From: Candidatus Colwellbacteria bacterium
Lineage (GTDB): Bacteria > Patescibacteriota > Minisyncoccia > UBA6257 > Colwellbacteraceae
DNA length: 64,000 nucleotides
Assembly (NCBI GenBank): GCA_016176505.1
Contig: JACOXB010000008.1
Span: forward strand, 984-64,983
Reading direction: 5' to 3'
The notes below the pieces were generated by a model, which worked only from the letters and a program-made list of their open reading frames with translations, was not told where the DNA came from and searched no databases. A program made the position numbers and the translations under genes. The stretch's first letter is position 1. Every line of letters starts with the position of its first letter. Below are positions 2,617 through 57,418 of the stretch, in pieces.

Positions 2617-2756
2617 TTCGAAGCTAGAAGTCTGCGGGTAGCCGGACAATCTCTAGTTTAGGACGGCCTGGTTCCGACTGGGCCGCTCCTCGAGTAGTTC
2701 CGGTCTCGAGTCGCCTATGACTTACCCTAAGTACCCGCAGTCTTCTGGCTTTCGAA
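2617..2756 (+). ncRNA. Candidate structured small RNA (~140 nt) closed by a ~24-bp imperfect terminal helix. Class not identified.
   Basis: ttcgaaGCTAGAAGTCTGCGGGTA at 2617-2640 pairs with TACCCGCAGTCTTCTGGCtttcgaa at 2732-2756. Internal local hairpins are present. It starts about 6 nt after the -10 box above. The 3' arm overlaps the last codons of pilB on the other strand. Confidence 0.25.
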
Positions 2757-9596: not shown

Positions 9597-10967
9597 TCAT
9601 CCCAAGCTGCTCACCATCTCTTTAATCATTAGAATCTTCTGGTTTAGGTTCGGATTTTTAGTAACATCATCGTTGATTTTCTTATAAGCATAAATAGCAG
9701 TGGTATGATCCCGCTTGCCAACTTTATTCGCAATATCGGGGTAAGACATGGCTAGGAGGTCGCGGAAGAGAAACATGGCGATCTGCCTTGGCTCAACAAA
9801 CTCTTTGTTGCGCTGGCGGCCAACCAAGTCGTTCGGTGAGATCTCAAAAAAGTTCGCCACCACCCTAATAATTTGGCTTGGGCTCACCTTAACCGCGGCC
9901 TTCTCAGCTATTTCAGCAATCACTTTTTCAGCAAAGGCCATATCAAGGGTCCGGTTATAGGTTGCTTGGTAAAAGAGGAGTTTGTTAAGAACACCTTCGA
10001 TTTCGCGAATGTTTTTCTGGGCCTTTCTAGCGATAAGGTCGATGATTTTCTCGTCAAGGGCCACCTCCCGATCTTGAAGCTTAGTTTTAGTAATCGCCAC
10101 CCGGGTTTCGTAGTCGGGGAAGGTAATATCAGCGATCATTCCGCCCTCAAATCTAGAGCGGAGCCTTGCCTCGAGGGTTGGGATGGCCTTGGGCGGCCGG
10201 TCAGAGGAGATAATAATCTGCTTATTGTTCTCGTGAAGAGCGTTGAAAGTATGGAAGAATTCTTCCTCGGTCTTTTCCTTGCCGCCGATAAACTGGATAT
10301 CGTCAATAATTAGAACATCAACCCCCCGGTAAGTTCTTTTAATGTCTTCGAAGCGGTTGTTTTTGACCGCCCAGACAACGTCATTGGTGAATTTTTCCGA
10401 GGTGACGTATTTAACTTTTACTTTGTCTTTATAATTTTTCTTGATTTCATTTCCGGCTGCTTGGATCAGATGGGTTTTGCCGAGGCCGGTTCCGCCATAA
10501 ATAAAAAGAGGATTATATTTTGTGCCAACTACGTCAACCACAGCCGATGTAGCCGAGTGAGCCAGTTCGTTAAACGAACCGACGACGAACGAATCAAAAG
10601 TGTAACGCGGGTTTAAATTAGTTTCGGGATCAACCTTGATTTCCGGTAGCGCCAACTGCCCCTCGCTCACGCGCCTGGCCACGAGTTTTGCGGCCTTCGA
10701 GCGGTTAGCCTTCTCCATAAACACCCCCTCGACCACATACTCTATCTTTCTCGTGGTTGAGTCGTAATTCCTGATTGAGCCGAGGATAAGTTTATGGTAC
10801 TTCAGCTCAACCCACTCCTTGGTAAAGTTATTCGGAAGAGCGATGAGGGCGGTTCCGTCTTGGGCATCGAGCAACCGACTGTTCTTCAGCCAGGTGAGAA
10901 AGTTGGGTCGGGACACCTGCAACTCTATTTCTGATAAAACCGCCCGCCAGAGCTCTTCTTTAGTCAT
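9597..10967 (-). CDS. dnaA: Chromosomal replication initiator DnaA
   Basis: 456 aa with Walker A GGTGLGKTHL, AAA+ sensor motifs and the C-terminal DnaA box-binding helix (...HTTAIYAYKKI). Confidence 0.95.
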   Translation of the reverse strand: MTKEELWRAVLSEIELQVSRPNFLTWLKNSRLLDAQDGTALIALPNNFTKEWVELKYHKLILGSIRNYDSTTRKIEYVVEGVFMEKANRSKAAKLVARRVSEGQLALPEIKVDPETNLNPRYTFDSFVVGSFNELAHSATSAVVDVVGTKYNPLFIYGGTGLGKTHLIQAAGNEIKKNYKDKVKVKYVTSEKFTNDVVWAVKNNRFEDIKRTYRGVDVLIIDDIQFIGGKEKTEEEFFHTFNALHENNKQIIISSDRPPKAIPTLEARLRSRFEGGMIADITFPDYETRVAITKTKLQDREVALDEKIIDLIARKAQKNIREIEGVLNKLLFYQATYNRTLDMAFAEKVIAEIAEKAAVKVSPSQIIRVVANFFEISPNDLVGRQRNKEFVEPRQIAMFLFRDLLAMSYPDIANKVGKRDHTTAIYAYKKINDDVTKNPNLNQKILMIKEMVSSLG

Positions 10968-11075
10968 GTCTCACCCCTATTCTTAATAAAACAAGAGCCG
11001 CAAGTCAAACACGGAATTTAAAGAAAGTTGTTGATTACTTGTGGAGGAATCGACCGAAGGCTATAATAACCGTCA

Positions 11076-11213
11076 GTGCCCAAAAGAACTTATCAGCCGA
11101 AAAAAAGAAAACGAGCTCGAACCCACGGCTTTATAAAGCGTAAACGCACACCAGGCGGCCGCGCCGTGCTCAAGCGGCGCCGGACTAAGGGCCGCGCGAA
11201 ACTCACAGTCTAG
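11076..11213 (+). CDS. rpmH: 50S ribosomal protein L34
   Basis: Hand translation from GTG at 11076 gives (M)[44 protein letters not shown], the L34 signature. It sits directly upstream of rnpA and is absent from the ORF track (<60 aa). Confidence 0.8.
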
Positions 11214-11215
11214 TT

Positions 11216-11554
11216 TTGATGCTCGGTAAAGCCTACCGTTTGGATGTGGCTGGATTTTCCAAAAACGCCGCCCTTATTCATAAAGGGGGATATTTTAACG
11301 CTAAGTTTGCTCCGAATAAGACCGGCCACTTGAGAGTCGGTATAGTTACAAGCCGTAAAACGATCCCGAAAGCCGCAAATAGGAATGCTTTAAGGCGAAG
11401 AATTTTCGATTTTTGGCAAACGGGGTTAGAGGAAAGATCGGTCGACATTCTCATTATTGTTAAGCCTGAAGCGGGCAAGCTTAACCCGCGGAAAAAAGAA
11501 GATTTGATTAATCTTCAATCTGAACTAAACTCAATCAAGAACAAGTTGAAATGA
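11216..11554 (+). CDS. rnpA: RNase P protein component
   Basis: A basic 112-aa protein in the rpmH-rnpA-yidC position with an RNase P protein-like RNR-type motif. Confidence 0.8.
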   Translation: MMLGKAYRLDVAGFSKNAALIHKGGYFNAKFAPNKTGHLRVGIVTSRKTIPKAANRNALRRRIFDFWQTGLEERSVDILIIVKPEAGKLNPRKKEDLINLQSELNSIKNKLK

Positions 11555-12285
11555 TTAGCGAGCTCTTTCGGGAAATTCTATATCGACCACTTTTTAATAT
11601 TTTGATTTTTCTTTACGAAACAGTCGCCTTCCGCGATTTAGGTTTAGCTATTATTCTTTTCACTATTTTAATCCGCCTCATTCTTTTTCCTCTATTCCAT
11701 AAAACCGCTAAGCACCAAAAACTTTCTCAGAAACTCCAGCCCGAAATTAAAGAAATCCAGAAGCGCTACAAGGATGATCGTGAGGCTCAGACCAAAGCCA
11801 TTATTGAGCTTTATCAAAAAAATAAATTAAGTCCTTTTACGCCTTTCGGCTTACTTCTTTTACAACTGCCGATCCTAATCGCTCTTTATCGGATTTTTAT
11901 CAATGGCTTTAACGAAGGGGTTCTTGGCCTACTTTACTCCTTTGTCCCCCGGCCAGAATCTTTTAATCAAACCCTTTTTGGCCTGATTCGGCTTGATGAG
12001 GTGAGCTGGCTACTCGTGGTCATCGCGACTGGGCTCCAATATTTACAGGGCCGGCTGGCTTTCAAGCCCCAGGCTATGGGAGCTAAAAACGCTAGCATGC
12101 TCAAGTTTACAGCCCTCCTTTTTCCGGCTCTCACCCTTTTGATTTTAATGAGATTTCCAGCGGCCTTAGCCCTCTATTGGTCGACAAGCACTGGTTTTTC
12201 TATAATTCAACAGGTAATTGTTAACCGCGATGGAGAAGCTAAAGGAAAAAATAGAGAGCCTCGTAAGGCTAATGGGGTTCGGTGA
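11551..12285 (+). CDS. yidC: Membrane protein insertase YidC (short, Gram-positive/CPR-type)
   Basis: 244 aa with multiple TM helices and a basic C-terminal tail. Its ATG overlaps the rnpA stop (ATGA). Confidence 0.85.
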   Translation: MISELFREILYRPLFNILIFLYETVAFRDLGLAIILFTILIRLILFPLFHKTAKHQKLSQKLQPEIKEIQKRYKDDREAQTKAIIELYQKNKLSPFTPFGLLLLQLPILIALYRIFINGFNEGVLGLLYSFVPRPESFNQTLFGLIRLDEVSWLLVVIATGLQYLQGRLAFKPQAMGAKNASMLKFTALLFPALTLLILMRFPAALALYWSTSTGFSIIQQVIVNRDGEAKGKNREPRKANGVR

Positions 12286-12661
12286 CTTTCGAGTTGAGTG
12301 CGAAGAGAACTCAAGACGAGTTAGTCTCCACATTAATGACGGGATTGTTTCAGAAGAAATTCTGCCAGCATTTGTTTTAAATCTCGAACGAGTAGCCAGG
12401 CTGATTGCTAAGCACTTGGATGAAGGTCCGGTTGTGGTTGATATTAATAACTACCGCCGTGAAAGAGAAGGATTAATTATTAAACTCGCCCGAGCCGCGG
12501 CGAGGAAAGCCGCAACCACTGGCGAGGCCGTGGCCCTACCAATAATGAATGCTTACGAGAGAAGATTGGTTCATACCGAACTTTCAATGCGCCCCGATGT
12601 TTTAACCGAAAGCACTGGCGAGACTGATCGCCACGTGGTCGTGAAACCGATTGAAGGATAA
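12230..12661 (+). CDS. jag: Jag/KhpB RNA-binding protein (Jag_N-KH-R3H)
   Basis: R3H motif ERRLVHTELS, located immediately after yidC. Start chosen at MEKLKEK. Confidence 0.8.
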   Translation: MEKLKEKIESLVRLMGFGDFRVECEENSRRVSLHINDGIVSEEILPAFVLNLERVARLIAKHLDEGPVVVDINNYRREREGLIIKLARAAARKAATTGEAVALPIMNAYERRLVHTELSMRPDVLTESTGETDRHVVVKPIEG

Positions 12662-12671
12662 AATAGGTTTC

Positions 12672-13139
12672 CTAAACTTTTTCTAAAAGCTTTAAAATTC
12701 CACTAAGCTCCTTGCCCTGGGATCGGTTATTAAGCCAAATAGTGATAGCGAGTGTTATGGTTCGGATCGGCAGGACACCGACCGTTAAAGCATCGGCTAA
12801 AAATCCGCCCATAAGGAAGATTAATCTTCTTACTGCCCTTTTTACTACTAGCCTGCCCGAGATACCTCGCAAAAGTGACCAGATAAGGATAGTGCCAGAT
12901 ATAAATAGGCCGAAAGTGAAGGCTAAGAACCAAATGACTTGGCCGAAAATAGGAACCCAAAACACGAGGCCAGCTAAGATTTCGAAGAGATCAGCTATGG
13001 CCGCGGCGCCAAGGACTATAAAACCTTCGACCGCCCCGATTTTTGCCCGTTCGGCATCCTGGCGCTTAAACTCAAGCTCCTCGACGCCCTCTAGGGGCTC
13101 CTCCTCAACCTCCTCACTAATCTCGATTACGTCGACCAT
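12672..13139 (-). CDS. Small polytopic membrane protein, last gene of the VirB4 cluster
   Basis: 155 aa with 3-4 predicted TM helices and an acidic N-terminus. Its start is 4 nt after the VirB4 stop. Confidence 0.5.
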   Translation of the reverse strand: MVDVIEISEEVEEEPLEGVEELEFKRQDAERAKIGAVEGFIVLGAAAIADLFEILAGLVFWVPIFGQVIWFLAFTFGLFISGTILIWSLLRGISGRLVVKRAVRRLIFLMGGFLADALTVGVLPIRTITLAITIWLNNRSQGKELSGILKLLEKV

Positions 13140-13142
13140 CGA

Positions 13143-15515
13143 CTAAAGCTCGTCTTGTTCCCTTAAAATTTGCTCTGGATCAGTGGTAATCAACTTATCT
13201 TCAAAATAAGACGGCACAACCTGGATCGCTACGTGTTTCAAGCCGGCGATGAAAAGCCCGGTGCCCACCTCTGCCTCGAGCAGGTAGCTTTTTTCAGTTT
13301 CAGTCAGATTAAATGATTTGGCAGCCAACTCGATCGCGGCTGGCGATTGCCTAAGAAGCAGTTGGAGCGAGGAATTAGTGATAATCGGTCGGCCATAAGG
13401 CGAGTTTAAGAAGTCTTCAACATCCTGAGTAATAGTTGAGATGCCAAGATAGTATTTTCTCGATCGTTTGGCCAAGCGATAAAGGAAAGAGGCGCTGTCC
13501 GGATACTTCATCATCCACCAAGCCTCATCAACAACCATAATTCTTTTTTTCAGTTCTCGCCGCACCAGGCTCCAGACAAAGTTCAAGATAATATACATCG
13601 CAATCGGCCGCAGTTCTTCCTCTAAATCGCGCACCGAAAAAACAATTAAGCGGTTATCAATATTAACGTTAGTGGGCCGATTAGCAAAACCAACGTAACT
13701 GCCCTTAGTAAAGCGATAAAGCCGGTTCGCCATATCGCGACCCCCTTCGATGTTTCGCAGAACCTCTTCAAGATTTTCTAAAAGCGGCGGCTCTTTGCCG
13801 GTAAAATCTTTATCAGCCGTAATGTCTTTCGAGGCATAGGTTTCAGTAATAGCCTGGTCAAGTAAAGCCTCTTCTTCGGAGCTAATTTTGCCGAGCATCA
13901 GCTTAACTAAACCGCTGAGGTCAACAATATGCGATTTTAAGGCTTCGCCCGGAGTTTCGTCTTCGGCCATAATCGGCAAGTCGAGCGGGTTGATCGTACT
14001 CTCTGACTGCAAAGAGATCCGGAAATAACTGCCGCCAACTGCTTTTGCTAGGGTTTCGTATTCATTTTCCGGATCAACAATAATCAGGTCCGAACCAAGC
14101 ATCATCGAGCGAATTACCTCGAGCTTAGTGGCATAAGATTTTCCCGAACCAGCCTTGCCAAAAATAACCATATTAGCGTTTTCGAGCGAAAAGCGGTCAA
14201 AAATAATAACGGTATTGTTGTGGCGGTTTAAGCCGTAAAGCACGCCCTCATCCGAAGTTAAATCAAGAGCGATAAAGGGGAAGAAAGAAGAAACCGGCGC
14301 CGAGTTTAAGGGAGTATGGATGCCGAGCTCGTCTCTCGCCAGAGGCGCGGTTGAAACAAATCCCTTTAATTGCTCAAAGTTCGCCGGTTTAAGGTTCACT
14401 AATTTGCTATCTAGGTCTTTAATAATTCGATTCTCGAGCCCGACAAGCTCTTTTTCCGAATCAGCGTAGATAGTGATGTAAACACTTGTGTCAAAAAGTT
14501 TTTCTTCAGCCCGCTGGAGTGAATCTCTGAGCATCTCAATGTCCTGGAGGGCCGTCTCAAGCAGAGGATTCCGAATCAACCCCTTTTCTTGGCCCTCCAT
14601 TATTTGGGCTTCGATTTGGGTTGTTTTTCTTCTTAAGTTTTTTAGAGCCGTGCCGGTATCAAGCGGATGAACAAAGATAGAAATATCTAAAAGTTCGGGC
14701 AGGTTAATAATCGGCGAGAACCAGCCGCTTGAAAGATAGCGCGGATAATTGAACACAAAAAGCGTTTTTAAGTACTTCTCGCCGATCCGGATAAAGTTTG
14801 GTGAAACTTCGGCCGAGGCCGGCGCCACAATGTCCTCAAGTCCGGCAATGCCGCTTTTGCCTTGGCGGCCGATAGCTTCGCCCCTTTTTTCGATTGTAGC
14901 CGGGTTGTAATAATTAAAATAAAGCTCAAGTAATTCCGGATCCTCAAGCGCCACAGCCCGGAGGCCAATTTGGCGCAGACTATTAATTACCTGTTCGGTC
15001 CGCTGATCTAGCTGCTCTTGGTGAAGCGGGTCAACTGCTTCGTTAATTTCGCCGACACCTTCGGACGCTGTTTTTTTGCCACCGAGAAATTTACCAAAGA
15101 TTGATTTAGCTGGGCCGGGCAGGACTGGCGGGTCAAAAGGAACAACCACAAAAAAACTTTTCGCCATAATGGCGTTCGTCTCCACAAAAGATTTAACAAA
15201 CTCCCGATATTCCTCGAGCTGGATTTTTAAAAGTTTATTAGGCTCGTTTTGCTGCCTTTCCTCGAGCGATCGGAGATATTCATCAACATTTAATTTGCGG
15301 GAGTGGATATTAATCTGAATTGAAAAATCGAGCGAGTTAAGCAGGCTTTGATAGGTGCCAATAATGATTTTTTGCTCGTCCTCGGACTTAAGGTCAAAAT
15401 TTAAGCCGTCAACTAAGACAACCTTCCGGAGAGCCCCGTTTTTAAGAATTACAATGCCATCCTTAATATCCTGGATGTCGACAATGCTCTGGGCGCGCGC
15501 CGCTTCAGTCGCCAT
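13143..15515 (-). CDS. virB4: VirB4/TrbE/CagE-family type IV secretion ATPase
   Basis: 790 aa. The C-terminal ATPase has Walker A VIFGKAGSGKS and Walker B IMVVDEAWWMM, the VirB4 DEAW signature. Confidence 0.85.
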   Translation of the reverse strand: MATEAARAQSIVDIQDIKDGIVILKNGALRKVVLVDGLNFDLKSEDEQKIIIGTYQSLLNSLDFSIQINIHSRKLNVDEYLRSLEERQQNEPNKLLKIQLEEYREFVKSFVETNAIMAKSFFVVVPFDPPVLPGPAKSIFGKFLGGKKTASEGVGEINEAVDPLHQEQLDQRTEQVINSLRQIGLRAVALEDPELLELYFNYYNPATIEKRGEAIGRQGKSGIAGLEDIVAPASAEVSPNFIRIGEKYLKTLFVFNYPRYLSSGWFSPIINLPELLDISIFVHPLDTGTALKNLRRKTTQIEAQIMEGQEKGLIRNPLLETALQDIEMLRDSLQRAEEKLFDTSVYITIYADSEKELVGLENRIIKDLDSKLVNLKPANFEQLKGFVSTAPLARDELGIHTPLNSAPVSSFFPFIALDLTSDEGVLYGLNRHNNTVIIFDRFSLENANMVIFGKAGSGKSYATKLEVIRSMMLGSDLIIVDPENEYETLAKAVGGSYFRISLQSESTINPLDLPIMAEDETPGEALKSHIVDLSGLVKLMLGKISSEEEALLDQAITETYASKDITADKDFTGKEPPLLENLEEVLRNIEGGRDMANRLYRFTKGSYVGFANRPTNVNIDNRLIVFSVRDLEEELRPIAMYIILNFVWSLVRRELKKRIMVVDEAWWMMKYPDSASFLYRLAKRSRKYYLGISTITQDVEDFLNSPYGRPIITNSSLQLLLRQSPAAIELAAKSFNLTETEKSYLLEAEVGTGLFIAGLKHVAIQVVPSYFEDKLITTDPEQILREQDEL

Positions 15516-15592
15516 ATGCCTAAGTATAGGTTTTTCCAGTTCAGTTTTGTAGGTTCGGATAATTCGGATATATTTCGCAGTTTCGGATTATA

Positions 15593-16132
15593 TTATCGGT
15601 AATCAACCCGTTTGGCCACTTCTCTCTCGCCGGTTATTCGGCGAACTAATTCGTATTTTTCTTTAAGCCGGGATCGGGGTTGGCCAAAATTTCGAGGTAA
15701 CGGCTGTTCCCGTCTCGGAATCGCTGTTTTTGAAGTGGCAATCCATTGCCAAAGACCCTTAATGCCGCCGAGCGTCGGCTTCTCCGGCCCTGCGGCGGCC
15801 AGAGGCTCGGCCCTCGCTATTATAATTTTTTTAGCTTCAGCTTCGGTTCTTGGTAGCCGCGGGTCAAAAACGTATATTTTGGGCCGCCAGAAACTATCAA
15901 AAAAAGCTCGGAAGAAAACCATAAGCGGCCGGCCATTAACTTTAATAAAGGCAAGGGCCAGACCAATAGCCGAGACAATCACGGTAAGGATTAGCCAAAG
16001 CCAAAATTCAAAAAGAACAAAGAAAATGACAATAAGAATGGCGGCCGCGGCAATATAAGCAAATTGCTTCAGGGTGAGAGCGCCGACTACCCTATCTTCA
16101 GTTTCAATAAATTGCGGAACCTGAAACTGCAC
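15593..16132 (-). CDS. Two-TM membrane protein upstream of VirB4 (VirB3/PrgI/TcpE-like position)
   Basis: 179 aa with two adjacent TM helices near the N-terminus and a basic C-terminus. Synteny matches VirB3-VirB4 of Gram-positive-type T4SS. Confidence 0.4.
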   Translation of the reverse strand: MQFQVPQFIETEDRVVGALTLKQFAYIAAAAILIVIFFVLFEFWLWLILTVIVSAIGLALAFIKVNGRPLMVFFRAFFDSFWRPKIYVFDPRLPRTEAEAKKIIIARAEPLAAAGPEKPTLGGIKGLWQWIATSKTAIPRREQPLPRNFGQPRSRLKEKYELVRRITGEREVAKRVDYR

Positions 16133-16136
16133 GGTC

Positions 16137-17021
16137 TTATTTAGGGAGGTCCTTAAGGTTAACTACGTTATTGGGATGAATCGCTTCATTTGTTGGGGTT
16201 GTTTGACCACTCTGCTTATTGGATCGCTCCGCTTGTTCAAGTTGTTCAGCTCCGACATCTTCAACGCTTCCGACATCTCCAACGGGACTACTTAGTCCGG
16301 TATAATGAACCACTCTTATTTGAGGTTTCTCGGTTCTGCCAACTTTTGGCGCGGCTCCTCCGGGTCCGGAATAAGGATAAGCAGTGGTCGCTTCATCTAC
16401 TTCAAGCCGGGCTGATATAGGCTTTTGTTCTGCCGGGGCAGGCGCCTCATCGGGTTCGAAAAAGTAAGGTCGCGCTAAAGAGGGCGCTCCGTCTTGCGCC
16501 TGGGCTTGTTCAACCGCGCCTTCTTCATGAAGCATAAATGGTGAATTTGTATCAGTTGGTGGCGATTCAGGGATCGGCTTCCAACTCGAGGTTTCGGCAA
16601 AAGCCGGTTTTAGCTCCTGGGCCGGCTGAGCGTTAACGTTTCCGACGTTTCGAACATCTCCAACAGTTTGAACAGGCGCCTGCGGCTCCCTCACTTCTCC
16701 CCAATGGTAAAGCGAGGTTATCTCATCGATTATTGGCGCGAGAATTTTCTTGTTGATTTCCTCGGCAATGGAGTTCGCCACTTGGGCCGGCAAGTTAACT
16801 TCTTTTTGAAATTCTTTAGCCAAATCTTCAGGATGGACAAAGCCAAGAATAACCGCCCCGGTTAAGTCAGCGATTTTCTTCGTGCGTTCTCCGTTCAAGT
16901 GGTGATCTTCGCCTAAATCCCAAATCACATCAGTGCTTTTTTCGGAAAAAAGCACTTCTTTTAAATGCTCAGGCAGAGCATCAAATCTTTCTCTGGCTTT
17001 GCCTAGCGGAATATTAATCAT
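16137..17021 (-). CDS. Hypothetical Pro/Gln-rich protein inside the T4SS-like cluster
   Basis: 294 aa: a structured N-terminal ~110 aa followed by a low-complexity P/A/Q-rich region with VGDVxNVG-type short repeats. Confidence 0.5.
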   Translation of the reverse strand: MINIPLGKARERFDALPEHLKEVLFSEKSTDVIWDLGEDHHLNGERTKKIADLTGAVILGFVHPEDLAKEFQKEVNLPAQVANSIAEEINKKILAPIIDEITSLYHWGEVREPQAPVQTVGDVRNVGNVNAQPAQELKPAFAETSSWKPIPESPPTDTNSPFMLHEEGAVEQAQAQDGAPSLARPYFFEPDEAPAPAEQKPISARLEVDEATTAYPYSGPGGAAPKVGRTEKPQIRVVHYTGLSSPVGDVGSVEDVGAEQLEQAERSNKQSGQTTPTNEAIHPNNVVNLKDLPK

Positions 17022-17033
17022 AAAGACATTTTA

Positions 17034-19118
17034 TCATGGACCCGAGGCTGGCGCCGGTGGGGCGAATAAGAGTCCGCTACCCAGCATTCGGTCATATTCC
17101 CGATAAAGTCTCCGGGCGAAACTTGCGTCCCTCTCTTCGGGCGATCCTGCCGGAGACAAGGCGGCTCTTGCCTCGAGTGCCCTCAGTTTATCGTCCGTAT
17201 TTATACCTCGTCCTCGCAAACCGGCGGGTAAGGTTCTGGTCTCGAAATCGTGTACATGCGCCTCGAACGTTTGTTGGAACTGATCAAGCTCATCGGCGTT
17301 CATCCTCGTCCTAAGTCTTGAGGTGGTCTCCGGTACGGTTTCCAATAGCCCCGAACCAAGACGCCCTGCGATAACTTGTCGTGTCGCATCTTGGAATCCG
17401 TACTGATTTCCTGGCCTGAATATTCGGGGTTGAATAGCATCGACACTTCTAGCAGTTTGATAGGTCGCTTGCCGGAAAGCATCTACGGCATTTCCCAATT
17501 CAGCCAGAGTTCCAGTTCCGTCTTCGAATGCTCGGGCGGCGTTCGCGACGGCCGTATTAAATCCTGCTGCCTGTTCGAGATCTTCGTAATCACCAACTCT
17601 TCCTGATCGTTGGAACCTCCTTCTCGTTCTTGCATCGCCAATGTAGCGAGATAAGCTTCCCGGCGCGTCAGGATTTTGTGGTAGTAGTCCGAGTAGGCCG
17701 CGCTGCCTAAGGAAATCCATAGCCTCGTCTAAGGGGGCCCCGTGGAGACTTGGCACGGCTTGAGCTAAACGGGCCGGGTTCTTTTTTAGGGTCGTCAAAT
17801 CTTGATCCGCCGCCTTTTTGACAGCCTCTTCGCCTTTCGCACCTAAGATGTTTAATCCTCGCCCCCCAGCTCGGACCGGGGCAGTCATTAATCGACCCAT
17901 CAATCCTCTTTCAGCGCCGGTCTGTTGGACCCTCGTGGTGAGTCTTTGGCCAGCTTCGGTTCTGAACGGAGCCGAAACGGTTCTCATCGCCATTAACCTA
18001 CCTCTGGCCTTCGCCCACTTGCCGCCCTTCTTCGCCGCAGCAATCGCATAGCCCGAACCGGTGATCCCCATTTTATTAGCCGCCATAAGGCCGCCTATTA
18101 AAAGTCCCGCCACAACAGTCATTCCAGCTACGGCCTCGGAAAAACTGGAGGTCGACCCGCTTGAGCCCTCGAAGATGGCGGGATCCTGAGCCAACCTAAC
18201 CGACAGAAAAAAGAAAAACATGGCAACTGGGGCAAAAAGTAGCCATCTAGTGAACTGTTGCCACCAAAGAGACCAAGGATTACCGCCAGCGACCTTAAGC
18301 TTGTCGCCAAAAATCCAAGTGACCCAAGCCAAGGGCAAAAGGATTATCAGGAAGGCGAGCCACATGGCTCTTATAAAAAGCATGCCCGCGAAAGCGAAAA
18401 GGGCTAATGTCCCAAGCACGCCGAAGACGAGGGAGAAGAGGATACTGGCGATAGAGGCGCCTATTTTTCCTACGTCTTCATCTCCTGGTCCATCCCCCCC
18501 GATACTAGCTAGAAGATTATCTGTATCTACGGCGGGTAGAAGAAAGACCTTAGCAAAGGAAAATGGACTAAAGTTGGTCGCGTCTTTAAGAACGCCGGTC
18601 AAGGCATCAACCGGAGCCATAAAAATATTAGTAACGATAAAGAAACCGAAATTGATCAGAAGAGCCGCAACAGCAAATTTAAAAAGGTATTGGCCGGCGT
18701 CAGCCCGACGGAACATCACCATAAAGGCAATGATAATAATCGCCGCCACCAGCCCCAGGTTGGCAACGGCCAGCACTATATCGTGTCCTTCCTGGATTAT
18801 CGGTACGGTTTTTATCTGTTCGTTGAATTTAATCGCGAGGCTGATAAAGCCGCCAGCTATGGCAAAGAATATACTGGTTAAAAATCCGATAATCGCGATT
18901 ATGAGGCCGGCCGCTATCCGGACTAAATCGGCAACTATGGGTTCAACCACGTCGTCAAGAACCCACCCTATAATTTCTCCTGGCCACTCCCAAAATTTCC
19001 AATTCCAACTGAACGGGTTCCACCAGCTGGCGTAGACCGGTTGAATACTAAAGAAAAGGGTTAGGGCAGCGACAAATACTTTGGAGAGCCCATGTTTTTT
19101 ATTCAGGCGTTCCATCAA
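17034..19118 (-). CDS. VirB6/TrbL-like polytopic membrane protein with a long C-terminal soluble tail
   Basis: 694 aa with a signal peptide, then six or more TM helices in the first ~330 aa (W-rich periplasmic loop), then a ~350-aa hydrophilic tail. It is the first gene of the VirB4 operon. Confidence 0.55.
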   Translation of the reverse strand: MMERLNKKHGLSKVFVAALTLFFSIQPVYASWWNPFSWNWKFWEWPGEIIGWVLDDVVEPIVADLVRIAAGLIIAIIGFLTSIFFAIAGGFISLAIKFNEQIKTVPIIQEGHDIVLAVANLGLVAAIIIIAFMVMFRRADAGQYLFKFAVAALLINFGFFIVTNIFMAPVDALTGVLKDATNFSPFSFAKVFLLPAVDTDNLLASIGGDGPGDEDVGKIGASIASILFSLVFGVLGTLALFAFAGMLFIRAMWLAFLIILLPLAWVTWIFGDKLKVAGGNPWSLWWQQFTRWLLFAPVAMFFFFLSVRLAQDPAIFEGSSGSTSSFSEAVAGMTVVAGLLIGGLMAANKMGITGSGYAIAAAKKGGKWAKARGRLMAMRTVSAPFRTEAGQRLTTRVQQTGAERGLMGRLMTAPVRAGGRGLNILGAKGEEAVKKAADQDLTTLKKNPARLAQAVPSLHGAPLDEAMDFLRQRGLLGLLPQNPDAPGSLSRYIGDARTRRRFQRSGRVGDYEDLEQAAGFNTAVANAARAFEDGTGTLAELGNAVDAFRQATYQTARSVDAIQPRIFRPGNQYGFQDATRQVIAGRLGSGLLETVPETTSRLRTRMNADELDQFQQTFEAHVHDFETRTLPAGLRGRGINTDDKLRALEARAALSPAGSPEERDASFARRLYREYDRMLGSGLLFAPPAPASGP

Positions 19119-19927
19119 GTCTTTCTTTTAATTATAGCCCTTTTTAAGAGGGGAGAGGCGGTTAATTCAGTGATTTTAGCTAAGGTTAAACTCTCACCGC
19201 GGCTTTTCGGTTCAAAACCAAGTCTTTCAAGTTCTTCCTCGACCTCCTTTTTAGCAATTCCAAGCCCATCCGAGAGATTATTTAAAATAGTTTTCCTCGG
19301 CTGCTTGAATAGAATTCTAATCAGTCCGTAATAAATTTCATCGCTATTTTTAAGCGATCGCCTGGATTTGGCGACGATCTTAATAATGGCCGAATCCACT
19401 TTGGGCTGGGGTCGAAAGGATTTTTTAGAGATATAACCTATAATCTCCGGCTTGCCCCAGAACCCGACACTCGCCGCCAAGATGTTCATCTTGCCCGTTA
19501 ACCTTTCAGCCACTTCTTTTTGAAGAGTTAAAATAATGAGTTTCGGTTTTCTCTCGAGTTCGCCAATTATCCGGAGCAAATATCCGGTGATGTAATAGGG
19601 GATGTTGCCTACTAATTTGTATTTTGTATTTTGTATGTCGTATTTAGTATCGAGCAGCGGGAGAACCTTAAGCGCATCACCTTCAATAATTTGGACCATG
19701 CTACTTTTACTGCTTGCTACTTGCGCCTGAATTTTTGTTGCCAACGTTAGGTCCTTTTCGATAGCAATAATTTTCTTCGGATTCGCCTGCAATAAAAATT
19801 TCGTCAGCTCTCCGTGGCCGGGCCCAATCTCCACAACCACATCGCTTGACTTCAGCTCGAGCGCCGCCACAATTTTTTTCAGCGCTTTTTTATCTTTCAA
19901 AAAATGCTGCCCCAATCTCTTCCCCAT
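19115..19927 (-). CDS. rsmA: 16S rRNA (adenine1518/1519-N6)-dimethyltransferase RsmA/KsgA
   Basis: MGKRLGQHFL plus the SAM motif VVEIGPGHGELT. The ORF extends to 19990; start chosen at Met22, 4 nt after the uvrD stop. Confidence 0.85.
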   Translation of the reverse strand: MGKRLGQHFLKDKKALKKIVAALELKSSDVVVEIGPGHGELTKFLLQANPKKIIAIEKDLTLATKIQAQVASSKSSMVQIIEGDALKVLPLLDTKYDIQNTKYKLVGNIPYYITGYLLRIIGELERKPKLIILTLQKEVAERLTGKMNILAASVGFWGKPEIIGYISKKSFRPQPKVDSAIIKIVAKSRRSLKNSDEIYYGLIRILFKQPRKTILNNLSDGLGIAKKEVEEELERLGFEPKSRGESLTLAKITELTASPLLKRAIIKRKT

Positions 19928-19931
19928 AGTT

Positions 19932-21689
19932 TTAGTCAAGGAAAATTTCCTCTTCGGAGTCGAGGTTTGTGGTTGGGCTGAATTCAACAAGTTCCGGCGG
20001 CAGTTCGTAAAGAAATCGTGAAGCCATGCCGTGAAAACTTAAAACCAGTTTTTGCTTAGCTCGGGTCATCGCCACATACATGAGGCGTCTTTCTTCCTCA
20101 AGTTCTTCGTCCGAGCCAAGAGAACGGTTATGCGGCAAAAATCCTTCAGCGGCGCCAACCACATAGACATTTTCAAATTCCAAGCCTTTGGCCAGGTGGA
20201 TTGTCATCAGTTTAATGGGTTTATCTTCGCCAACAAGGATCGTTTTGTCTAAGGGTTGAAGCAGGGAAATTTTCTCAATAAACTCGCCCAAATCGTGAAA
20301 TCCAGCGGCAAAACTAATAAGCTCAGCCACGTTTTCTTGCCTCTCTTCAGCGTTCCTGAACTTAGCCTCAAGATAGGCTGAATAATTAGCGGTTTTTAGG
20401 ATAAAACCAATAAGCTCTAGTAATTTAAGCTCTCCCGCTAGGCGCGGCAGTTCGGAAATAAGCTCGGCCGCCACCCTTTTAGTAAAAGTCTTTTCCAATC
20501 GTTCGCGGCTGATTTCATCTTTAGGATTTAAGGCATAGCGAAGACCGGATATAATATCTTTAATTTCTTTCCTTTCGTAGAATTTAACTCCGCCAAATAT
20601 TTCATAAGAAATAAAATTGAAATTGAGTTCTTGCTCTAAAGCTCGGGACTGGGCATTGGTTCGGTAAAGAATGGCCGACTCGGTTCTGCCGCGGCTCATA
20701 ATTTCCGCCACTATTCTTTTTGCTTCTTCTTCCGGATCACGAGCATTAATCACTTTGATTAATTCCCCGCGGCCATTCGATGTCCAAAGTTTTTTCGGTC
20801 GGCGAAATTGATTGTTTTCAATTAAGGCGGCAGCCGCTTCCACAATTATACCGGTCGAGCGATAATTCTCGCCTAAGGTGACCACTTTAGCTTCGGGCCA
20901 GTCGCGTTCGAAATTAAGAAAGTTTTTAAAATCTGACCAGCGCCAGCCATAAATCGCCTGCTCATCATCGCCAACCACATTGAGATTACGGTGGTTTTGG
21001 CAAAGCTGCTTCAAAAGTAGATATTGAGCCGTATTAATATCCTGGTATTCATCAACTAGAATATAGTCGTAGCGTTTCTGGTGTTTCTCGAGAATCGCCA
21101 GCTCTTTTTGAAATAATTGCACTGGTTTTTCAATTAAGTCGTCAAAGTCAAAAGCATTTTGGCGACGTAGGCCGGATTCGTAAGCCTTAAAGAAACGGAG
21201 AAACTTCGGTTCGAGTTCTTTCTCCAAAAGTAAGTTATTCTTTAGTCGCGAAATTTCCCAAAGCATTTTGGCCGGTCCGAAGCTTGAAGAATTTAGAATG
21301 TTTTTCATCAGCCGCTCCGAGTCTTTATTATCAAAGATGGCAAAGTTTTTACTCCGGCCAAAGTGTTTTGCCTCCTCCCTAAGGATTTTTGCGCCAAAAG
21401 AATGAAAAGTGCCCACGAACGGGCTCCGAGCTCGTAGCCCATAGCTAACAGCTAACGGCCGATCGAGTCTAGCCCTCATTTCGTTCGCCGCTTTATTAGT
21501 AAAAGTAATAGCCACGATTCGCTCCGGCCGAACACCCGCCTCGACAAGGTGGACTAAGCGTTCGGTGAGCGTTCGAGTTTTACCTGAGCCAGCGCCGGCG
21601 ACAATAATAAGCGGCCCCTTGCCATAGGCGACAGCCTCAGATTGCCCAGGATTTAGGGGCCTTTTTCCGTCCACTTGATTATTTTTCAC
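19932..21689 (-). CDS. pcrA: ATP-dependent DNA helicase, UvrD/PcrA family (compact)
   Basis: 585 aa with Walker A AGAGSGKT and SF1 motifs (TFHSFG, VDEYQD). Confidence 0.85.
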   Translation of the reverse strand: MKNNQVDGKRPLNPGQSEAVAYGKGPLIIVAGAGSGKTRTLTERLVHLVEAGVRPERIVAITFTNKAANEMRARLDRPLAVSYGLRARSPFVGTFHSFGAKILREEAKHFGRSKNFAIFDNKDSERLMKNILNSSSFGPAKMLWEISRLKNNLLLEKELEPKFLRFFKAYESGLRRQNAFDFDDLIEKPVQLFQKELAILEKHQKRYDYILVDEYQDINTAQYLLLKQLCQNHRNLNVVGDDEQAIYGWRWSDFKNFLNFERDWPEAKVVTLGENYRSTGIIVEAAAALIENNQFRRPKKLWTSNGRGELIKVINARDPEEEAKRIVAEIMSRGRTESAILYRTNAQSRALEQELNFNFISYEIFGGVKFYERKEIKDIISGLRYALNPKDEISRERLEKTFTKRVAAELISELPRLAGELKLLELIGFILKTANYSAYLEAKFRNAEERQENVAELISFAAGFHDLGEFIEKISLLQPLDKTILVGEDKPIKLMTIHLAKGLEFENVYVVGAAEGFLPHNRSLGSDEELEEERRLMYVAMTRAKQKLVLSFHGMASRFLYELPPELVEFSPTTNLDSEEEIFLD

Positions 21690-21702
21690 CCTTCTCTAAG
21701 AT

Positions 21703-22773
21703 ATGATGGTTATTAGTACCATACTACAAAAGTCGGGGTTTTGGTTGAAGGCGATCGGGGGGGTCCCGTTGCCTCCTATTTTTTTAGCCCTCGGACTCTT
21801 CGGAGCCAACTTTTTTTATTTAAGCCAGGCGAGCACGGCCAAGCCTCCAGAAGCCACTTCTACGGCGGATGGTCCGCTCGAACCTGCAGCCGCCGCTCTT
21901 ATCAGCGATGTTTCGCCTCTTGGCGAACTCGTAATGGACGACCCAGAAGATGAATTTCTGGGCTTTGTTTTAGTTGATAAAGCTTCACTTTTAAACTCCG
22001 CAAGTCCGGCAAGCAATGTGTCCCAGTTAAGAGGCGGCCTTTTAACTTATGAGGTTGAAGAAGGCGATTCAGTTTCCACGATTGCCGCTAACTTCGGTAT
22101 TTCAGTTAACACTATTATTTGGGCTAATGATCTGAAGGGCTCTGGTTTAATTCGGCCAGATCAGGAAATTGTGATCTTACCAGTCTCGGGCGTGCTCCAT
22201 AGGGTGAAAAGCGGTGAGACGCTCGAATCGATTGCCAAGGTTTATGATGTTTCCGAAGATGAAATCGCCCGGCTAAACAAAGGCGCACTTAAGGCAGGCG
22301 AATCTGTGATTGTACCGGGCGGAAAGCCTACCAGCGCTTCTGGCCGAGGCGCTATCGGCGGTTCGGTCGAGAGCCGAGGTGGATCATCGCGGTCAAACCT
22401 GCCCGAACTAAGCGGCTATTTTGGGCGACCTGTAAACGGCGGCTGGAACTGGGGCGAGCTTCATGACGGGAACGCGGTTGATATTTCTTCTGCCTGCGGT
22501 TCACCAGTTTATGCGGCGGCTGCGGGAACAGTTAGTTTAGTTTCGGGCCCGCTTTCTTGGAGCGGCGGCTACGGCGGTCTTGTGAGAATCAATCATTCTA
22601 ACGGCACTAAAACTCTTTACGCTCACACTTCAGAAAACTTAGTTACTAATGGTCAAGAGGTGGCCCAGGGTGAGGCGATTGCTAGAGTCGGCCGCACCGG
22701 TAAAGTTTCTGGCCGTACTGGCTGCCATGTTCACTTCGGCGTTACCGGCGCGGCGAATCCCTTCGCTCGCTAA
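21703..22773 (+). CDS. LysM-domain M23-family peptidoglycan metalloendopeptidase
   Basis: N-terminal TM helix, two LysM-like segments (e.g. YEVEEGDSVSTIAANFGISVNTIIWAN) and a C-terminal M23 domain (HxxxD...HVHFGV). Confidence 0.85.
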   Translation: MMVISTILQKSGFWLKAIGGVPLPPIFLALGLFGANFFYLSQASTAKPPEATSTADGPLEPAAAALISDVSPLGELVMDDPEDEFLGFVLVDKASLLNSASPASNVSQLRGGLLTYEVEEGDSVSTIAANFGISVNTIIWANDLKGSGLIRPDQEIVILPVSGVLHRVKSGETLESIAKVYDVSEDEIARLNKGALKAGESVIVPGGKPTSASGRGAIGGSVESRGGSSRSNLPELSGYFGRPVNGGWNWGELHDGNAVDISSACGSPVYAAAAGTVSLVSGPLSWSGGYGGLVRINHSNGTKTLYAHTSENLVTNGQEVAQGEAIARVGRTGKVSGRTGCHVHFGVTGAANPFAR

Positions 22774-22774
22774 A

Positions 22775-24298: not shown

Positions 24299-24301
24299 AT
24301 T

Positions 24302-24646
24302 TTAGTGTTTTAGCTTGCAGTCGCGGCAGAGTTTTGACTCTGGCGCTACCTCGAGCAGTTCTCAGGATATTTCCTTGCCGCATTTTTCGCATTTGCCGTA
24401 CGTGCCCTCGTCCATTTTTCGGAGAGCCTCATTAATGTCCTTAAGTCTTAGCTCGAGCGGTTCTCTAATGGCCTCGTGAGTAACTCTTTCTTCACTCTCA
24501 TCCGAATCTTCTTCGCCAGCGGCGTAGGTAGTGTCTTCGCCAAAATCGCGCGCCTCCCGAGATCCTAGGGTTTTAACCTCTTTCTCAAGCCGCGCCTTAT
24601 CTTTTAGAAGCAGTTGTTTTAACTTTTCTTGATCTTCCGGAGTCAT
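24302..24646 (-). CDS. TraR/DksA family C4 zinc-finger protein, interrupted by an in-frame TGA at 24362-24364
   Basis: The ORF 24362..24646 ends ...GKCEKCGKEIS-TGA. Reading the same frame through the TGA gives ELLEVAPESKLCRDCKLKH-TAA (24302-24304). This completes an exact C-x2-C-x17-C-x2-C DksA/TraR finger. The gene then ends 3 nt before the comM ATG. Confidence 0.6.
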
Positions 24647-24713
24647 GAGTTTACAAAATCAATTATCCCACTCAGTCTAACTGCGTCAAGCAGCATAGCA
24701 TATAATAAATGGA

Positions 24714-57193: not shown

Positions 57194-57418
57194 CTATTGG
57201 AGCAAGCTAACAATTGAGAGGCCGACAAAAGTCACGGCCGAGACAATAGTTGCTATAAAAATCATTTTTTCGATCCCCCGTCGGCGCTGATAAAATTCAC
57301 CGCCCATACTTGAGGCGCCTAAAAATCCACCCCCCATGCCTGAAGAACGCTGCTGCAAGAGAATCAGAAGAATTACAATAGCCGCGCTTACGAGCTGACC
57401 AACCGTGATAAGGCTCAT
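57194..57418 (-). CDS. secG: Preprotein translocase subunit SecG
   Basis: 74 aa with two TM helices and a Gly-rich loop (LLQQRSSGMGGGFLGASSMGGEF), typical of SecG. Confidence 0.7.
   Translation of the reverse strand: MSLITVGQLVSAAIVILLILLQQRSSGMGGGFLGASSMGGEFYQRRRGIEKMIFIATIVSAVTFVGLSIVSLLQ

What the first reader, a model, noticed from the sequence alone, without database searches (positions are those of the whole stretch)
12672..19118. Origin-proximal type IV secretion-like operon (VirB6-like, Pro-rich protein, VirB3-like, VirB4, small membrane protein)
Five co-directional genes with 3-12 nt spacers form one operon directly beside the jag/yidC/rnpA/dnaA core. It holds an unambiguous VirB4 ATPase (GSGKS Walker A, DEAW Walker B) and a 694-aa polytopic VirB6-like protein with a long soluble tail. 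A two-TM protein sits in the VirB3/PrgI position. No relaxase, VirD4 coupling protein or integrase is in the window, which argues for a minimal chromosomal T4SS-like machine rather than an integrated conjugative element. Such minimal systems are reported in small-genome episymbiotic bacteria.
Basis: partly seen in the sequence, partly recalled or inferred. Interest (0 to 1): 0.55.

Follow-up and report, generated by a model that had tools for sequence, protein, structure and literature searches.

The report
Chromosomal Patescibacteria type IV secretion core
This is the chromosomal type IV secretion gene cluster that ultra-small Patescibacteria (CPR) bacteria typically keep next to their replication genes; it is real and correctly read, but this kind of system, its position near dnaA and its lack of conjugation genes were already published in 2023-2025.

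Summary
All five minus-strand genes exist as described. The window comes from a Candidatus Colwellbacteria MAG (Parcubacteria/Paceibacteria).

- **VirB4 (790 aa):** passes NCBIfam's curated cut-off for the monoderm CD1110 VirB4 family.
- **179-aa protein:** passes Pfam's PrgI (VirB3-like) cut-off.
- **694-aa protein:** its membrane domain folds like R388 TrwI/VirB6, and it carries a confident all-helical C-terminal tail ("extended VirB6").
- **294-aa and 155-aa proteins:** they match no curated family, yet both are conserved positional partners of virB4 in relatives.

No relaxase, coupling protein, integrase, flanking repeat, adjacent tRNA or base-composition anomaly occurs in the 64 kb. The order ksgA / VirB6 / p294 / PrgI / VirB4 / (jag) yidC / dnaA / dnaN recurs across many Parcubacteria lineages. 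This is therefore a vertically inherited chromosomal system, not an integrated conjugative element.

The one unusual point is that this copy is stripped down. It lacks the VirB2-like pilin gene that 54 of 55 relatives carry downstream of virB4, and it lacks four other accessory families.

The system itself is known (Wang 2023; Quiñonero-Coronel 2025).

The parts
17034..19115 (-). Extended VirB6-like polytopic membrane protein (693/694 aa). It has an N-terminal signal-like segment and hydrophobic segments across aa ~56-348. A 346-aa all-helical soluble tail follows, probably cytoplasmic.
   Evidence: No direct Pfam or NCBIfam hit. Among homologues, 4 of 26 hit Pfam TrbL_4 (best E 1.8e-5), and 5 carry a precomputed PF19590 hit. 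The AF2 model has mean pLDDT 78.7, with the tail above 90. The only high-probability Foldseek hits are TrwI/VirB6 of R388 (8rt9_F probability 1.00, TMt 0.50; 7o3v chains 0.99). An HMM built only from relatives finds this ORF alone in the window (E 1.2e-43, aa 65-385). The first 40 tail residues hold 9 K/R against 1 D/E. The start ATG overlaps the ksgA stop.
16137..17021 (-). Conserved cytoplasmic accessory protein of unknown function ('p294'). It has a folded 7-helix N-terminal domain (aa 1-105), then a disordered acidic/Pro-rich region with short conserved motifs: PF[IM]LH at 161-165, RVVHY at 236-240 and a C-terminal VVNLKDLP.
   Evidence: No Pfam or NCBIfam family for it or for 32 relatives. 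The family lies directly upstream of PrgI in 48 of 53 loci with enough flank (65 of 80 overall). The leave-one-out HMM gives E 1e-31. AF2 pLDDT exceeds 90 for aa 10-100 and is below 50 afterwards. There is no credible PDB fold match. The N-domain alone finds 2,403 clusters at E<=1e-3 among 1.84 billion representatives, in all 150 hits listed at or near the N-terminus (three of them at an internal second copy, aa ~120-320).
15593..16132 (-). PrgI/VirB3-like two-helix membrane hairpin (aa 15-67) with a 112-aa basic tail.
   Evidence: Pfam PF12666 PrgI scores 34.7 bits against a cut-off of 27 (aa 5-88). A relative lies just upstream of virB4 in 78 of 80 loci by tblastn. The leave-one-out HMM gives E 2.2e-38.
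15516..15592 (-). 77-nt spacer between the PrgI-like gene and virB4, the only long gap in the run. It contains three copies of ATCCGAA.
   Evidence: Read directly from the sequence. No function was tested.
13143..15515 (-). VirB4 ATPase of monoderm (MPF-FATA / CD1110) type, with the TrsD-like N-terminal module fused to it.
   Evidence: NCBIfam NF045971 scores 400.8 bits against a cut-off of 325. A TrsD/TraD hit covers aa 14-123 (E 2.7e-5, below cut-off). It is 26% identical over 610 aa to pCF10 PrgJ (E 6e-42). The C-terminal domain matches Thermoanaerobacter VirB4 4AG5 (E 4.7e-45). Walker A is at aa 453 and Walker B at aa 659. In 70 of 80 relatives the same protein is split into ~212-aa and ~600-aa ORFs.
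12672..13139 (-). Small polytopic membrane protein ('p155') with an acidic N-terminus and 3-4 hydrophobic segments. It belongs to a family that sits immediately after virB4. It is not a T4SS pilin.
   Evidence: No Pfam or NCBIfam hit. The iterated family reaches 43 of 80 loci, and 41 of the 43 members start 10-123 nt after virB4 on the same strand. The leave-one-out HMM gives E 2.7e-12. D50, G92 and P124 are nearly invariant. hhalign against the pilin family gives probability 1.5%.
19115..19990 (-). ksgA (rRNA adenine dimethylase). This housekeeping gene is translationally coupled to the first T4SS gene and marks the conserved upstream border of the locus.
   Evidence: Pfam RrnaAD E 3.8e-43. 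TGATG overlap. ksgA lies upstream of the T4SS genes in 42 of 80 loci.
21703..22773 (+). LysM + M23 peptidase, transcribed divergently from uvrD. It is only a candidate for the missing VirB1-like wall hydrolase.
   Evidence: Pfam Peptidase_M23 E 2.1e-23 and LysM E 5.1e-20. The gene keeps this position in at least 13 relatives. PMC12102498 reports that VirB1-like hits in Patescibacteria often carry M23/LysM domains. No link to the T4SS was shown here.

Best explanation
**What it is.** This is the inner-membrane core of the Patescibacteria-type type IV secretion system. The machine descends from monoderm (MPF-FATA) conjugation systems, has become a vertically inherited chromosomal housekeeping locus, and is no longer used for conjugation.

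**Shown here: component identities.**
- A VirB4 ATPase with intact Walker motifs and a fused TrsD-like N-module.
- A PrgI/VirB3-like membrane hairpin encoded just upstream.
- An extended VirB6-like polytopic protein.
- Two lineage-specific partners that are conserved in position: a cytoplasmic protein (p294) and a small membrane protein (p155).

**Inferred from solved and studied T4SSs.** VirB4 hexamers dock on the membrane through the VirB3-like hairpin. The VirB6-like protein forms the membrane platform or channel. Its large helical tail and p294, with its short conserved peptide motifs, sit on the cytoplasmic side. They may recruit cargo in place of the absent coupling protein.

**Inferred from Saccharibacteria genetics.** The machine moves proteins or other macromolecules across the single membrane at the contact with a host cell, and it supports the epibiotic lifestyle.

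**What is particular to this copy.** It is a compacted variant. The pilin gene and four accessory families (two upstream, two downstream) that flank the core in most relatives are missing from the locus and from the whole 64-kb window.
For: **Identities.**
- VirB4 is above the curated cut-off and resembles PrgJ and 4AG5.
- PrgI is above the Pfam cut-off.
- The VirB6 fold match to TrwI has probability 0.99-1.00, and homologues hit TrbL_4.

**Chromosomal and vertically inherited.**
- At least 583 genome loci encode a relative.
- Among the best 80, PrgI is adjacent in 78, yidC/dnaA/dnaN lie downstream in 51-54, and ksgA lies upstream in 42. These loci span Wolfe-, Nomura-, Kaiser-, Yonath-, Zambryskii- and Campbellbacteria.
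- VirB4 identity tracks DnaA identity (Pearson 0.87).
- Operon GC is 0.46-0.52 against 0.466 +/- 0.025 for other genes.
- There are no flanking repeats, no adjacent tRNA and no mobile-element genes.

**Conserved partners.** p294 and p155 are each recovered by HMMs built only from relatives (E 1e-31 and 2.7e-12).

**Reduced state.** HMMs for the pilin, D2, D4, U1 and U2 families find nothing in any window ORF of at least 40 aa. By contrast, 54, 51 and 52 of 55 relatives have pilin, D2 and D4 respectively.

**Literature.**
- The same system, its lack of relaxase and its dnaA/dnaN/rnpA/ksgA neighbourhood are described in PMC12102498.
- The Saccharibacteria T4SS cluster is essential for epibiotic growth, with no recognisable coupling protein or relaxase (PMC10633639).
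- Its VirB6-like proteins also carry ARM-repeat-like C-terminal domains.
Against: - The function is entirely inferred. No Parcubacteria T4SS has been tested, and the Saccharibacteria evidence comes from a different class.
- In Saccharibacteria the pilins are essential, yet no pilin gene is present here. This copy may need genes elsewhere in the genome, or it may work differently.
- The 694-aa protein itself hits no VirB6/TrbL profile, and the Foldseek E-values are weak (0.17).
- The roles proposed for p294, p155 and the VirB6 tail rest on no experiment and no structural match.
- The rest of the genome could not be searched for VirD4, relaxase or pilin.
Confidence: 0.85

Rival explanations
1. 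The locus is a decaying or incomplete remnant. Having lost the pilin and four accessory genes, the five remaining genes no longer form a working secretion machine.
For: - A pilin gene lies downstream of virB4 in 54 of 55 relatives, D2 in 51 of 55 and D4 in 52 of 55. None is in the window.
- Pilins are essential in the Saccharibacteria system.
Against: - All five ORFs are intact and tightly packed, with conserved Walker motifs and family-invariant residues.
- The two closest relatives (L001, L008) show similar compaction, so it is a stable lineage trait.
- The missing genes could lie elsewhere in the genome. PMC12102498 finds pilin genes away from virB4 in many assemblies.
Confidence: 0.12
2. 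It is a DNA or nucleotide uptake machine, analogous to the archaeal Ced system or the Helicobacter ComB system. It would import host DNA to feed an organism that cannot make nucleotides.
For: - The set is minimal (VirB4, VirB6-like, small membrane proteins) with no relaxase or coupling protein, as in Ced and ComB.
- There are weak NCBIfam hits to CedB (E 6.6e-13) and CedD.
- The FEMS review speculates about uptake from the host.
Against: - CedB scores 48 bits against a cut-off of 700, so the hit reflects only shared P-loop similarity.
- The Patescibacteria VirB4 clade is separate from the archaeal import systems (PMC12102498).
- In S. epibionticum, deleting comEC abolished competence but not viability, while the T4SS remained essential.
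Confidence: 0.1
3. It is part of an integrated conjugative element or another horizontally acquired island that happens to sit near dnaA.
For: - The VirB4 family (CD1110) and the PrgI family are typical of ICEs and plasmids of Firmicutes.
Against: - There is no relaxase, T4CP, integrase, excisionase, flanking direct repeat or adjacent tRNA.
- Base composition is native.
- The same gene order between ksgA and yidC/dnaA recurs across many lineages.
- The first T4SS gene is translationally coupled to ksgA.
Confidence: 0.02

Closest known systems
Patescibacteria-clade T4SS (Quiñonero-Coronel et al. 2025, PMC12102498); experimentally, the Southlakia epibionticum cluster SEML1_0006-0019 (Wang et al. 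2023, PMC10633639)
   Same: - VirB4 of MPF-FATA ancestry, a TrsD-like module, PrgI/VirB3 and a VirB6-like protein with a large helical C-terminal domain.
- No relaxase or coupling protein nearby.
- Chromosomal position next to dnaA/dnaN/rnpA/ksgA.
- Gene order VirB6 / x / PrgI / (TrsD) VirB4.
   Different: - No PF18895 pilin gene in the locus or the window.
- No lysozyme or VirB1-like gene and no NTF2/VirB8-like gene adjacent.
- TrsD is fused to VirB4 rather than separate.
- Two partners (p294, p155) are not named in those papers, as far as I read them.
pCF10 Prg/Pcf conjugative T4SS of Enterococcus faecalis (MPF-FATA prototype)
   Same: - prgH(VirB6)-prgI(VirB3)-prgJ(VirB4) order.
- VirB4 is 26% identical to PrgJ over 610 aa.
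- The Pfam PrgI family applies to the 179-aa protein.
   Different: - pCF10 adds PrgK (wall hydrolase), PrgL (VirB8-like), PcfC (VirD4), the PcfG relaxase and adhesins. None is present here.
- Profiles of the 694-, 294- and 155-aa families show no similarity to PrgH, PrgF or PrgG.
- BLASTP finds no alignment between the 179-aa protein and PrgI itself.
R388 TrwI/VirB6 and 'extended VirB6' proteins
   Same: The membrane domain of the 694-aa protein superposes on TrwI (probability 0.99-1.00, TM-score on target 0.44-0.52, ~280-300 columns). A large hydrophilic C-terminal domain defines the 'extended VirB6' class.
   Different: - No sequence-level match to TrwI.
- This is a monoderm setting with no VirB5, VirB7, VirB9 or VirB10.
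- The tail has no confident structural relative, only low-probability ARM/HEAT-like hits.
Archaeal Ced DNA-import system and Helicobacter ComB
   Same: A minimal VirB4 + VirB6-like + small membrane protein set working without relaxase or coupling protein.
   Different: The CedB and CedD model scores are far below their cut-offs. Ced and ComB import DNA, whereas essentiality of the Patescibacteria system is independent of ComEC competence.

Membership tests
Patescibacteria-clade chromosomal T4SS | VirB4 ATPase of MPF-FATA ancestry | tested here: met
   NCBIfam CD1110 family scores 400.8 bits against a cut-off of 325. The best solved relative is the Firmicute VirB4 4AG5 (E 4.7e-45). Hundreds of Patescibacteria relatives share 47-69% identity. 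No phylogenetic tree was built here.
Patescibacteria-clade chromosomal T4SS | PrgI/VirB3-like gene next to virB4 | tested here: met
   Pfam PrgI scores 34.7 bits against a cut-off of 27. The gene lies 77 nt upstream of virB4.
Patescibacteria-clade chromosomal T4SS | VirB6-like polytopic protein near virB4 | tested here: met
   Foldseek matches to TrwI/VirB6 have probability 0.99-1.00. TrbL_4 hits occur in 4 of 26 homologues. The protein itself has no direct profile hit.
Patescibacteria-clade chromosomal T4SS | TrsD-like module (homologous to the VirB4 N-terminus) | tested here: inconclusive
   NF041427 TrsD matches aa 14-123 at E 2.7e-5, but scores 24 bits against a cut-off of 200. In 70 of 80 relatives the corresponding ~212 aa are a separate ORF. 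Here they are fused.
Patescibacteria-clade chromosomal T4SS | VirB2-like T4SS pilin gene(s) (PF18895) near virB4 | tested here: not met
   The pilin-family HMM finds nothing in any window ORF of at least 40 aa. The p155 family is unrelated to pilins. Pilin is present in 54 of 55 relatives. The feature is common but not universal in the published survey.
Patescibacteria-clade chromosomal T4SS | No relaxase or coupling protein at the locus; chromosomal site near dnaA/dnaN/rnpA/ksgA | tested here: met
   Pfam scans of the whole window. dnaA lies 1.7 kb from the operon's end. Synteny is shown.
Conjugative T4SS / integrated conjugative element | Relaxase, type IV coupling protein, integrase and attachment repeats | tested here: not met
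   None was found in the 64 kb. The rest of the genome was not available.
Conjugative T4SS / integrated conjugative element | VirB1-like wall hydrolase and VirB8-like protein in the cluster | tested here: not met
   Neither is among the five genes. A LysM-M23 peptidase lies 2.6 kb upstream on the other strand and is only a candidate.
Ced / ComB DNA-uptake systems | CedB-type or ComB4-type ATPase with the cognate membrane partners | tested here: not met
   CedB scores 48 bits against a cut-off of 700, and CedD 23 bits against 600.
Pfam TrbL/VirB6 families (for the 694-aa protein) | Score above the gathering threshold for a TrbL/VirB6 model | tested here: not met
   No family reaches E<=0.01 for the window protein. 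The relationship rests on homologues and on the fold.

The most novel reading that the evidence does not exclude
This Colwellbacteria lineage may run a pilus-less, five-protein T4SS translocon: extended VirB6, p294, VirB3-like, TrsD-VirB4 fusion and p155. In that reading, p294 (a family of at least 2,400 clusters with no Pfam model or solved fold) and the VirB6 tail replace the coupling protein as cytoplasmic cargo recruiters. The locus would then define the irreducible core of the Patescibacteria system and add two unrecognised subunits to it.
Probability: 0.2. Interest if true: 0.55.

Novelty: new member of a known kind. Interest (0 to 1): 0.3.

Why it matters
The Patescibacteria T4SS is the first T4SS reported as essential to the bacterium that carries it, and its cargo and direction of transport are unknown. 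This copy changes nothing about the published picture.

Comparison with 80 relatives does give three practical leads.
1. **A parts list for the Parcubacteria version.** Two positionally conserved families, p294 and p155, match no Pfam or NCBIfam family.
2. **A naturally minimised five-gene variant.** It lacks the pilin gene and could guide reconstitution or structural work.
3. **Coupling to ksgA.** The cluster is translationally coupled to this housekeeping gene, which argues that it is expressed constitutively as part of the core genome.

Tried and rejected
- **pCF10 comparisons.** Profile-versus-sequence comparison of the 694-, 294- and 155-aa families with PrgH, PrgF and PrgG gave no similarity (probability below 1%). 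BLASTP of the 179-aa protein against PrgI gave no alignment.
- **PDB sequence search.** A profile of the VirB6-like family found nothing meaningful at E<=1.
- **p294 fold search.** Foldseek of the p294 model against the PDB gave a best probability of 0.25, so there is no assignment.
- **p155 as a divergent pilin.** I tested this and rejected it. Pfam T4SS_pilin hit only one member of the 29-sequence alignment, most likely a positional stand-in I had added by position rather than homology. hhalign against the pilin family gave probability 1.5%.
- **Relationships among the locus families.** hhalign of the p155, p294 and PrgI families against each other and the other locus families gave no hit above 4% probability.
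- **Integration signatures.** Only chance-level repeats were found, and the nearest tRNA is 10 kb away.
- **Promoter and terminator scan.** Counts were equal to shuffled expectation, so it was uninformative.
- **DnaA boxes.** The E. coli consensus is not enriched, with 8 found against 9.1 expected.
- **Contig beyond the window.** Exact-protein look-ups returned either no record or only a 3.5-kb contig.
- **Rfam.** Only the tmRNA and two tRNAs were found; nothing lies in the operon.
Full report

Yes. Five minus-strand ORFs occupy 12672-13139, 13143-15515, 15593-16132, 16137-17021 and 17034-19118.

The gaps between them are 3, 77, 4 and 12 nt.

The first gene probably starts at the ATG at 19115. 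NCBI holds that 693-aa form as HYS89_01410. This ATG shares a base with the ksgA stop codon (TGATG). The co-directional, tightly packed run is thus uvrD-ksgA plus the five genes.

On the other side, the 155-aa gene ends 10 nt from the convergent jag gene. Beyond jag lie yidC and rnpA, then dnaA and dnaN.

**2. Source organism**

Three of the proteins are identical to "hypothetical proteins" of a Candidatus Colwellbacteria MAG. This lineage belongs to the Parcubacteria group of Patescibacteria.

**3. What the five proteins are**

- **VirB4 (790 aa).** It scores 400.8 bits on NCBIfam's CD1110 VirB4 equivalog (cut-off 325). An additional weak TrsD-like match covers aa 14-123.
  - It is 26% identical to pCF10 PrgJ over 610 residues.
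  - Its C-terminal domain matches the Thermoanaerobacter VirB4 structure 4AG5 at E 4.7e-45.
  - Walker A and Walker B are intact.
- **PrgI/VirB3-like (179 aa).** It passes Pfam's PrgI threshold. It is a two-helix hairpin with a basic tail.
- **VirB6-like (694 aa).** It has no direct family hit.
  - Among its homologues, 4 of 26 hit Pfam TrbL_4, and five carry a precomputed PF19590 hit. From memory PF19590 is another TrbL-type model; the tool did not name it.
  - An AlphaFold model (mean pLDDT 78.7) gives TrwI/VirB6 chains of the R388 T4SS as the only high-probability Foldseek hits. These have probability 0.99-1.00, TM-score on the target 0.44-0.52 and E about 0.17.
  - Residues ~430-680 form a very confident (pLDDT above 90) all-helical domain with only low-probability ARM/HEAT-like matches.
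  - The stretch after the last hydrophobic segment is strongly basic, so the tail is probably cytoplasmic. This is an inference.
  - The architecture fits the "extended VirB6" class. The Saccharibacteria VirB6-like proteins SEML1_0011 and SEML1_0013 also carry ARM-repeat-like C-terminal domains.
- **p294 (294 aa).** It has no Pfam or NCBIfam family, and neither do 32 relatives.
  - It has a conserved 7-helix N-terminal domain with pLDDT above 90 and no credible PDB fold match.
  - A disordered acidic/Pro-rich region follows, holding three short conserved motifs.
  - The N-domain alone retrieves 2,403 clusters at E<=1e-3 from 1.84 billion representatives. In all 150 hits listed the match is at or near the N-terminus, three of them at an internal second copy.
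- **p155 (155 aa).** It is a small polytopic membrane protein with no family hit.

**4. Context from relatives**

A scan of one genome per species found at least 583 loci encoding a VirB4 relative. The best 80 are all Patescibacteria MAGs.

tblastn and iterated HMMs on those loci give a canonical Parcubacteria locus:

ksgA - U2 - U1 - VirB6-like - p294 family - PrgI - (TrsD +) VirB4 - p155 family - D2 - T4SS_pilin (PF18895) - D4 - (jag) yidC - rnpA | dnaA - dnaN

Counts across the relatives are as follows.

| Feature | Count |
|---|---|
| PrgI adjacent to virB4 | 78 of 80 |
| yidC / dnaA / dnaN downstream | 51-54 of 80 |
| ksgA upstream | 42 of 80 |
| p294 family present | 48 of 53 loci with enough flank |
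| VirB6-like present | 47 of 53 |
| Pilin downstream of virB4 | 54 of 55 |
| D2 | 51 of 55 |
| D4 | 52 of 55 |
| p155 family present | 43 of 80, almost always starting 10-123 nt after virB4 |

HMMs built without the window sequences recover each window protein as the only hit in the window:

| Protein | E-value |
|---|---|
| p155 | 2.7e-12 |
| p294 | 1e-31 |
| VirB6-like N-terminal domain | 1.2e-43 |
| PrgI-like | 2.2e-38 |

VirB4 is split into ~212-aa and ~600-aa ORFs in 70 of 80 relatives. It is fused in the window and its nearest relatives.

**5. Mobile element or chromosomal system?**

The evidence points to a chromosomal system.

- Pfam scans of about 60 ORFs across the 64 kb found only housekeeping genes. 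They found no relaxase, coupling protein, integrase or transposase.
- There are no flanking repeats. The nearest tRNA is at 29.9 kb.
- Operon GC lies within the range of the other genes.
- The conserved synteny and the ksgA overlap argue for a vertically inherited locus.
- VirB4 and DnaA identities to the window co-vary (Pearson 0.87). Rank correlation is weak (0.29) because most loci fall within a narrow identity band.

**6. What is unusual here**

The window's copy is compacted.

- HMMs for the pilin, D2, D4, U1 and U2 families find nothing in any ORF of at least 40 aa in the window.
- The distance from virB4 to yidC is 858 nt, against a median of 3.8 kb in relatives.
- The two closest relatives (L001 and L008, with 69% and 58% VirB4 identity) are similarly compact. 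They keep a 99-aa pilin where the window has p155.
- p155 is not a detectable pilin relative.

I could not determine whether a pilin gene lies elsewhere in this genome.

**7. Mechanism**

Only the component identities are shown here.

By analogy with studied T4SSs, VirB4 hexamers dock on the VirB3-like hairpin. The VirB6-like protein forms the membrane platform. I propose that the VirB6 tail and p294 act on the cytoplasmic side in cargo handling; this is inference only.

The biological role is taken from Saccharibacteria. There the T4SS cluster is essential for growth on the host, lacks recognisable coupling and relaxase proteins, and is thought to export proteins or "serve in an alternative capacity". 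That essentiality does not depend on ComEC competence.

**8. Comparison with the known, and novelty**

Quiñonero-Coronel et al. 2025 already report the following:

- a monophyletic Patescibacteria VirB4 clade within MPF-FATA;
- TrsD, PrgI/VirB3, VirB6 and VirB2-like pilins near virB4;
- near-absence of relaxases;
- enrichment of dnaA, dnaN, rnpA, ksgA and rpmH next to virB4, especially in Paceibacteria.

The finding is therefore a correct recognition of a published system, and this locus is a new member of a known kind.

Three points may go beyond what I read in those papers: the two unnamed conserved partners (p294 and p155 families), the TGATG coupling to ksgA, and the pilin-less compaction in this lineage.

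**9. Verdict**

Interest is low to moderate.

Noticed in passing
window 43421-46825 (+): The 1134-aa isoleucyl-tRNA synthetase-like protein carries a histidine-phosphatase domain (Pfam His_Phos_1, E 6e-34) at aa 488-661. The domain is inserted between two stretches of the class I synthetase catalytic domain. This is an unusual insertion.
   Followed up: no
window 21700-24713: The cumulative GC-skew minimum and the switch in gene orientation fall near 24.3-24.7 kb, in the divergent comM/ruvA intergenic region. This is about 13.5 kb from dnaA, and the T4SS operon lies between the two. E. coli-type DnaA boxes are not enriched anywhere. The true origin may not be next to dnaA.
   Followed up: partly
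L007, L012, L032, L053, L071, L075, L080 and 63 other loci, around locus position 10000-12500: In 70 of 80 relatives VirB4 is encoded as two ORFs, ~212 aa (TrsD-like) and ~600 aa. The window and its nearest relatives have a single 790-aa ORF.
   Followed up: partly
relatives, e.g. L005:4845-6641, L005:12787-13479 and L005:14662-15765: Four more families are conserved around virB4 in Parcubacteria: U2, U1, D2 and D4. They occur in 41, 44, 71 and 54 of 80 loci. Most members have one N-terminal hydrophobic segment. None has a significant Pfam match (best E 3.7e-4, below cut-off).
   Followed up: partly
window 15516-15592 (-): The 77-nt PrgI-virB4 spacer contains three copies of ATCCGAA within 35 nt. 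This could be a regulatory or ribosome-loading element.
   Followed up: no
window 16237-16283 and 16627-16664: Short imperfect DNA repeats inside the p294 gene encode a repeated VGDV(R/G)(N/S)V peptide in its disordered region.
   Followed up: no
window 57415-57768 (-): A 117-aa protein matches Pfam Phage_holin_4_2 (E 5.7e-20), with no other phage genes nearby.
   Followed up: no
window 2727-4448 (-): A PilB-like T2SS/T4P assembly ATPase (Pfam T2SSE, E 6.6e-115) lies 8 kb from the T4SS operon. No pilin or PilC gene is recognisable in the window.
   Followed up: no
window 18220-19035 (+): A 271-aa ORF runs antisense inside the VirB6-like gene. It is most likely a by-product of the composition of that gene rather than a real gene.
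   Followed up: no
window 40913-41677 (+): smpB is followed 4 nt later by the tmRNA gene (tag peptide ANQKVAVPAYAYA). This is an ordinary pairing, noted for completeness.
   Followed up: yes
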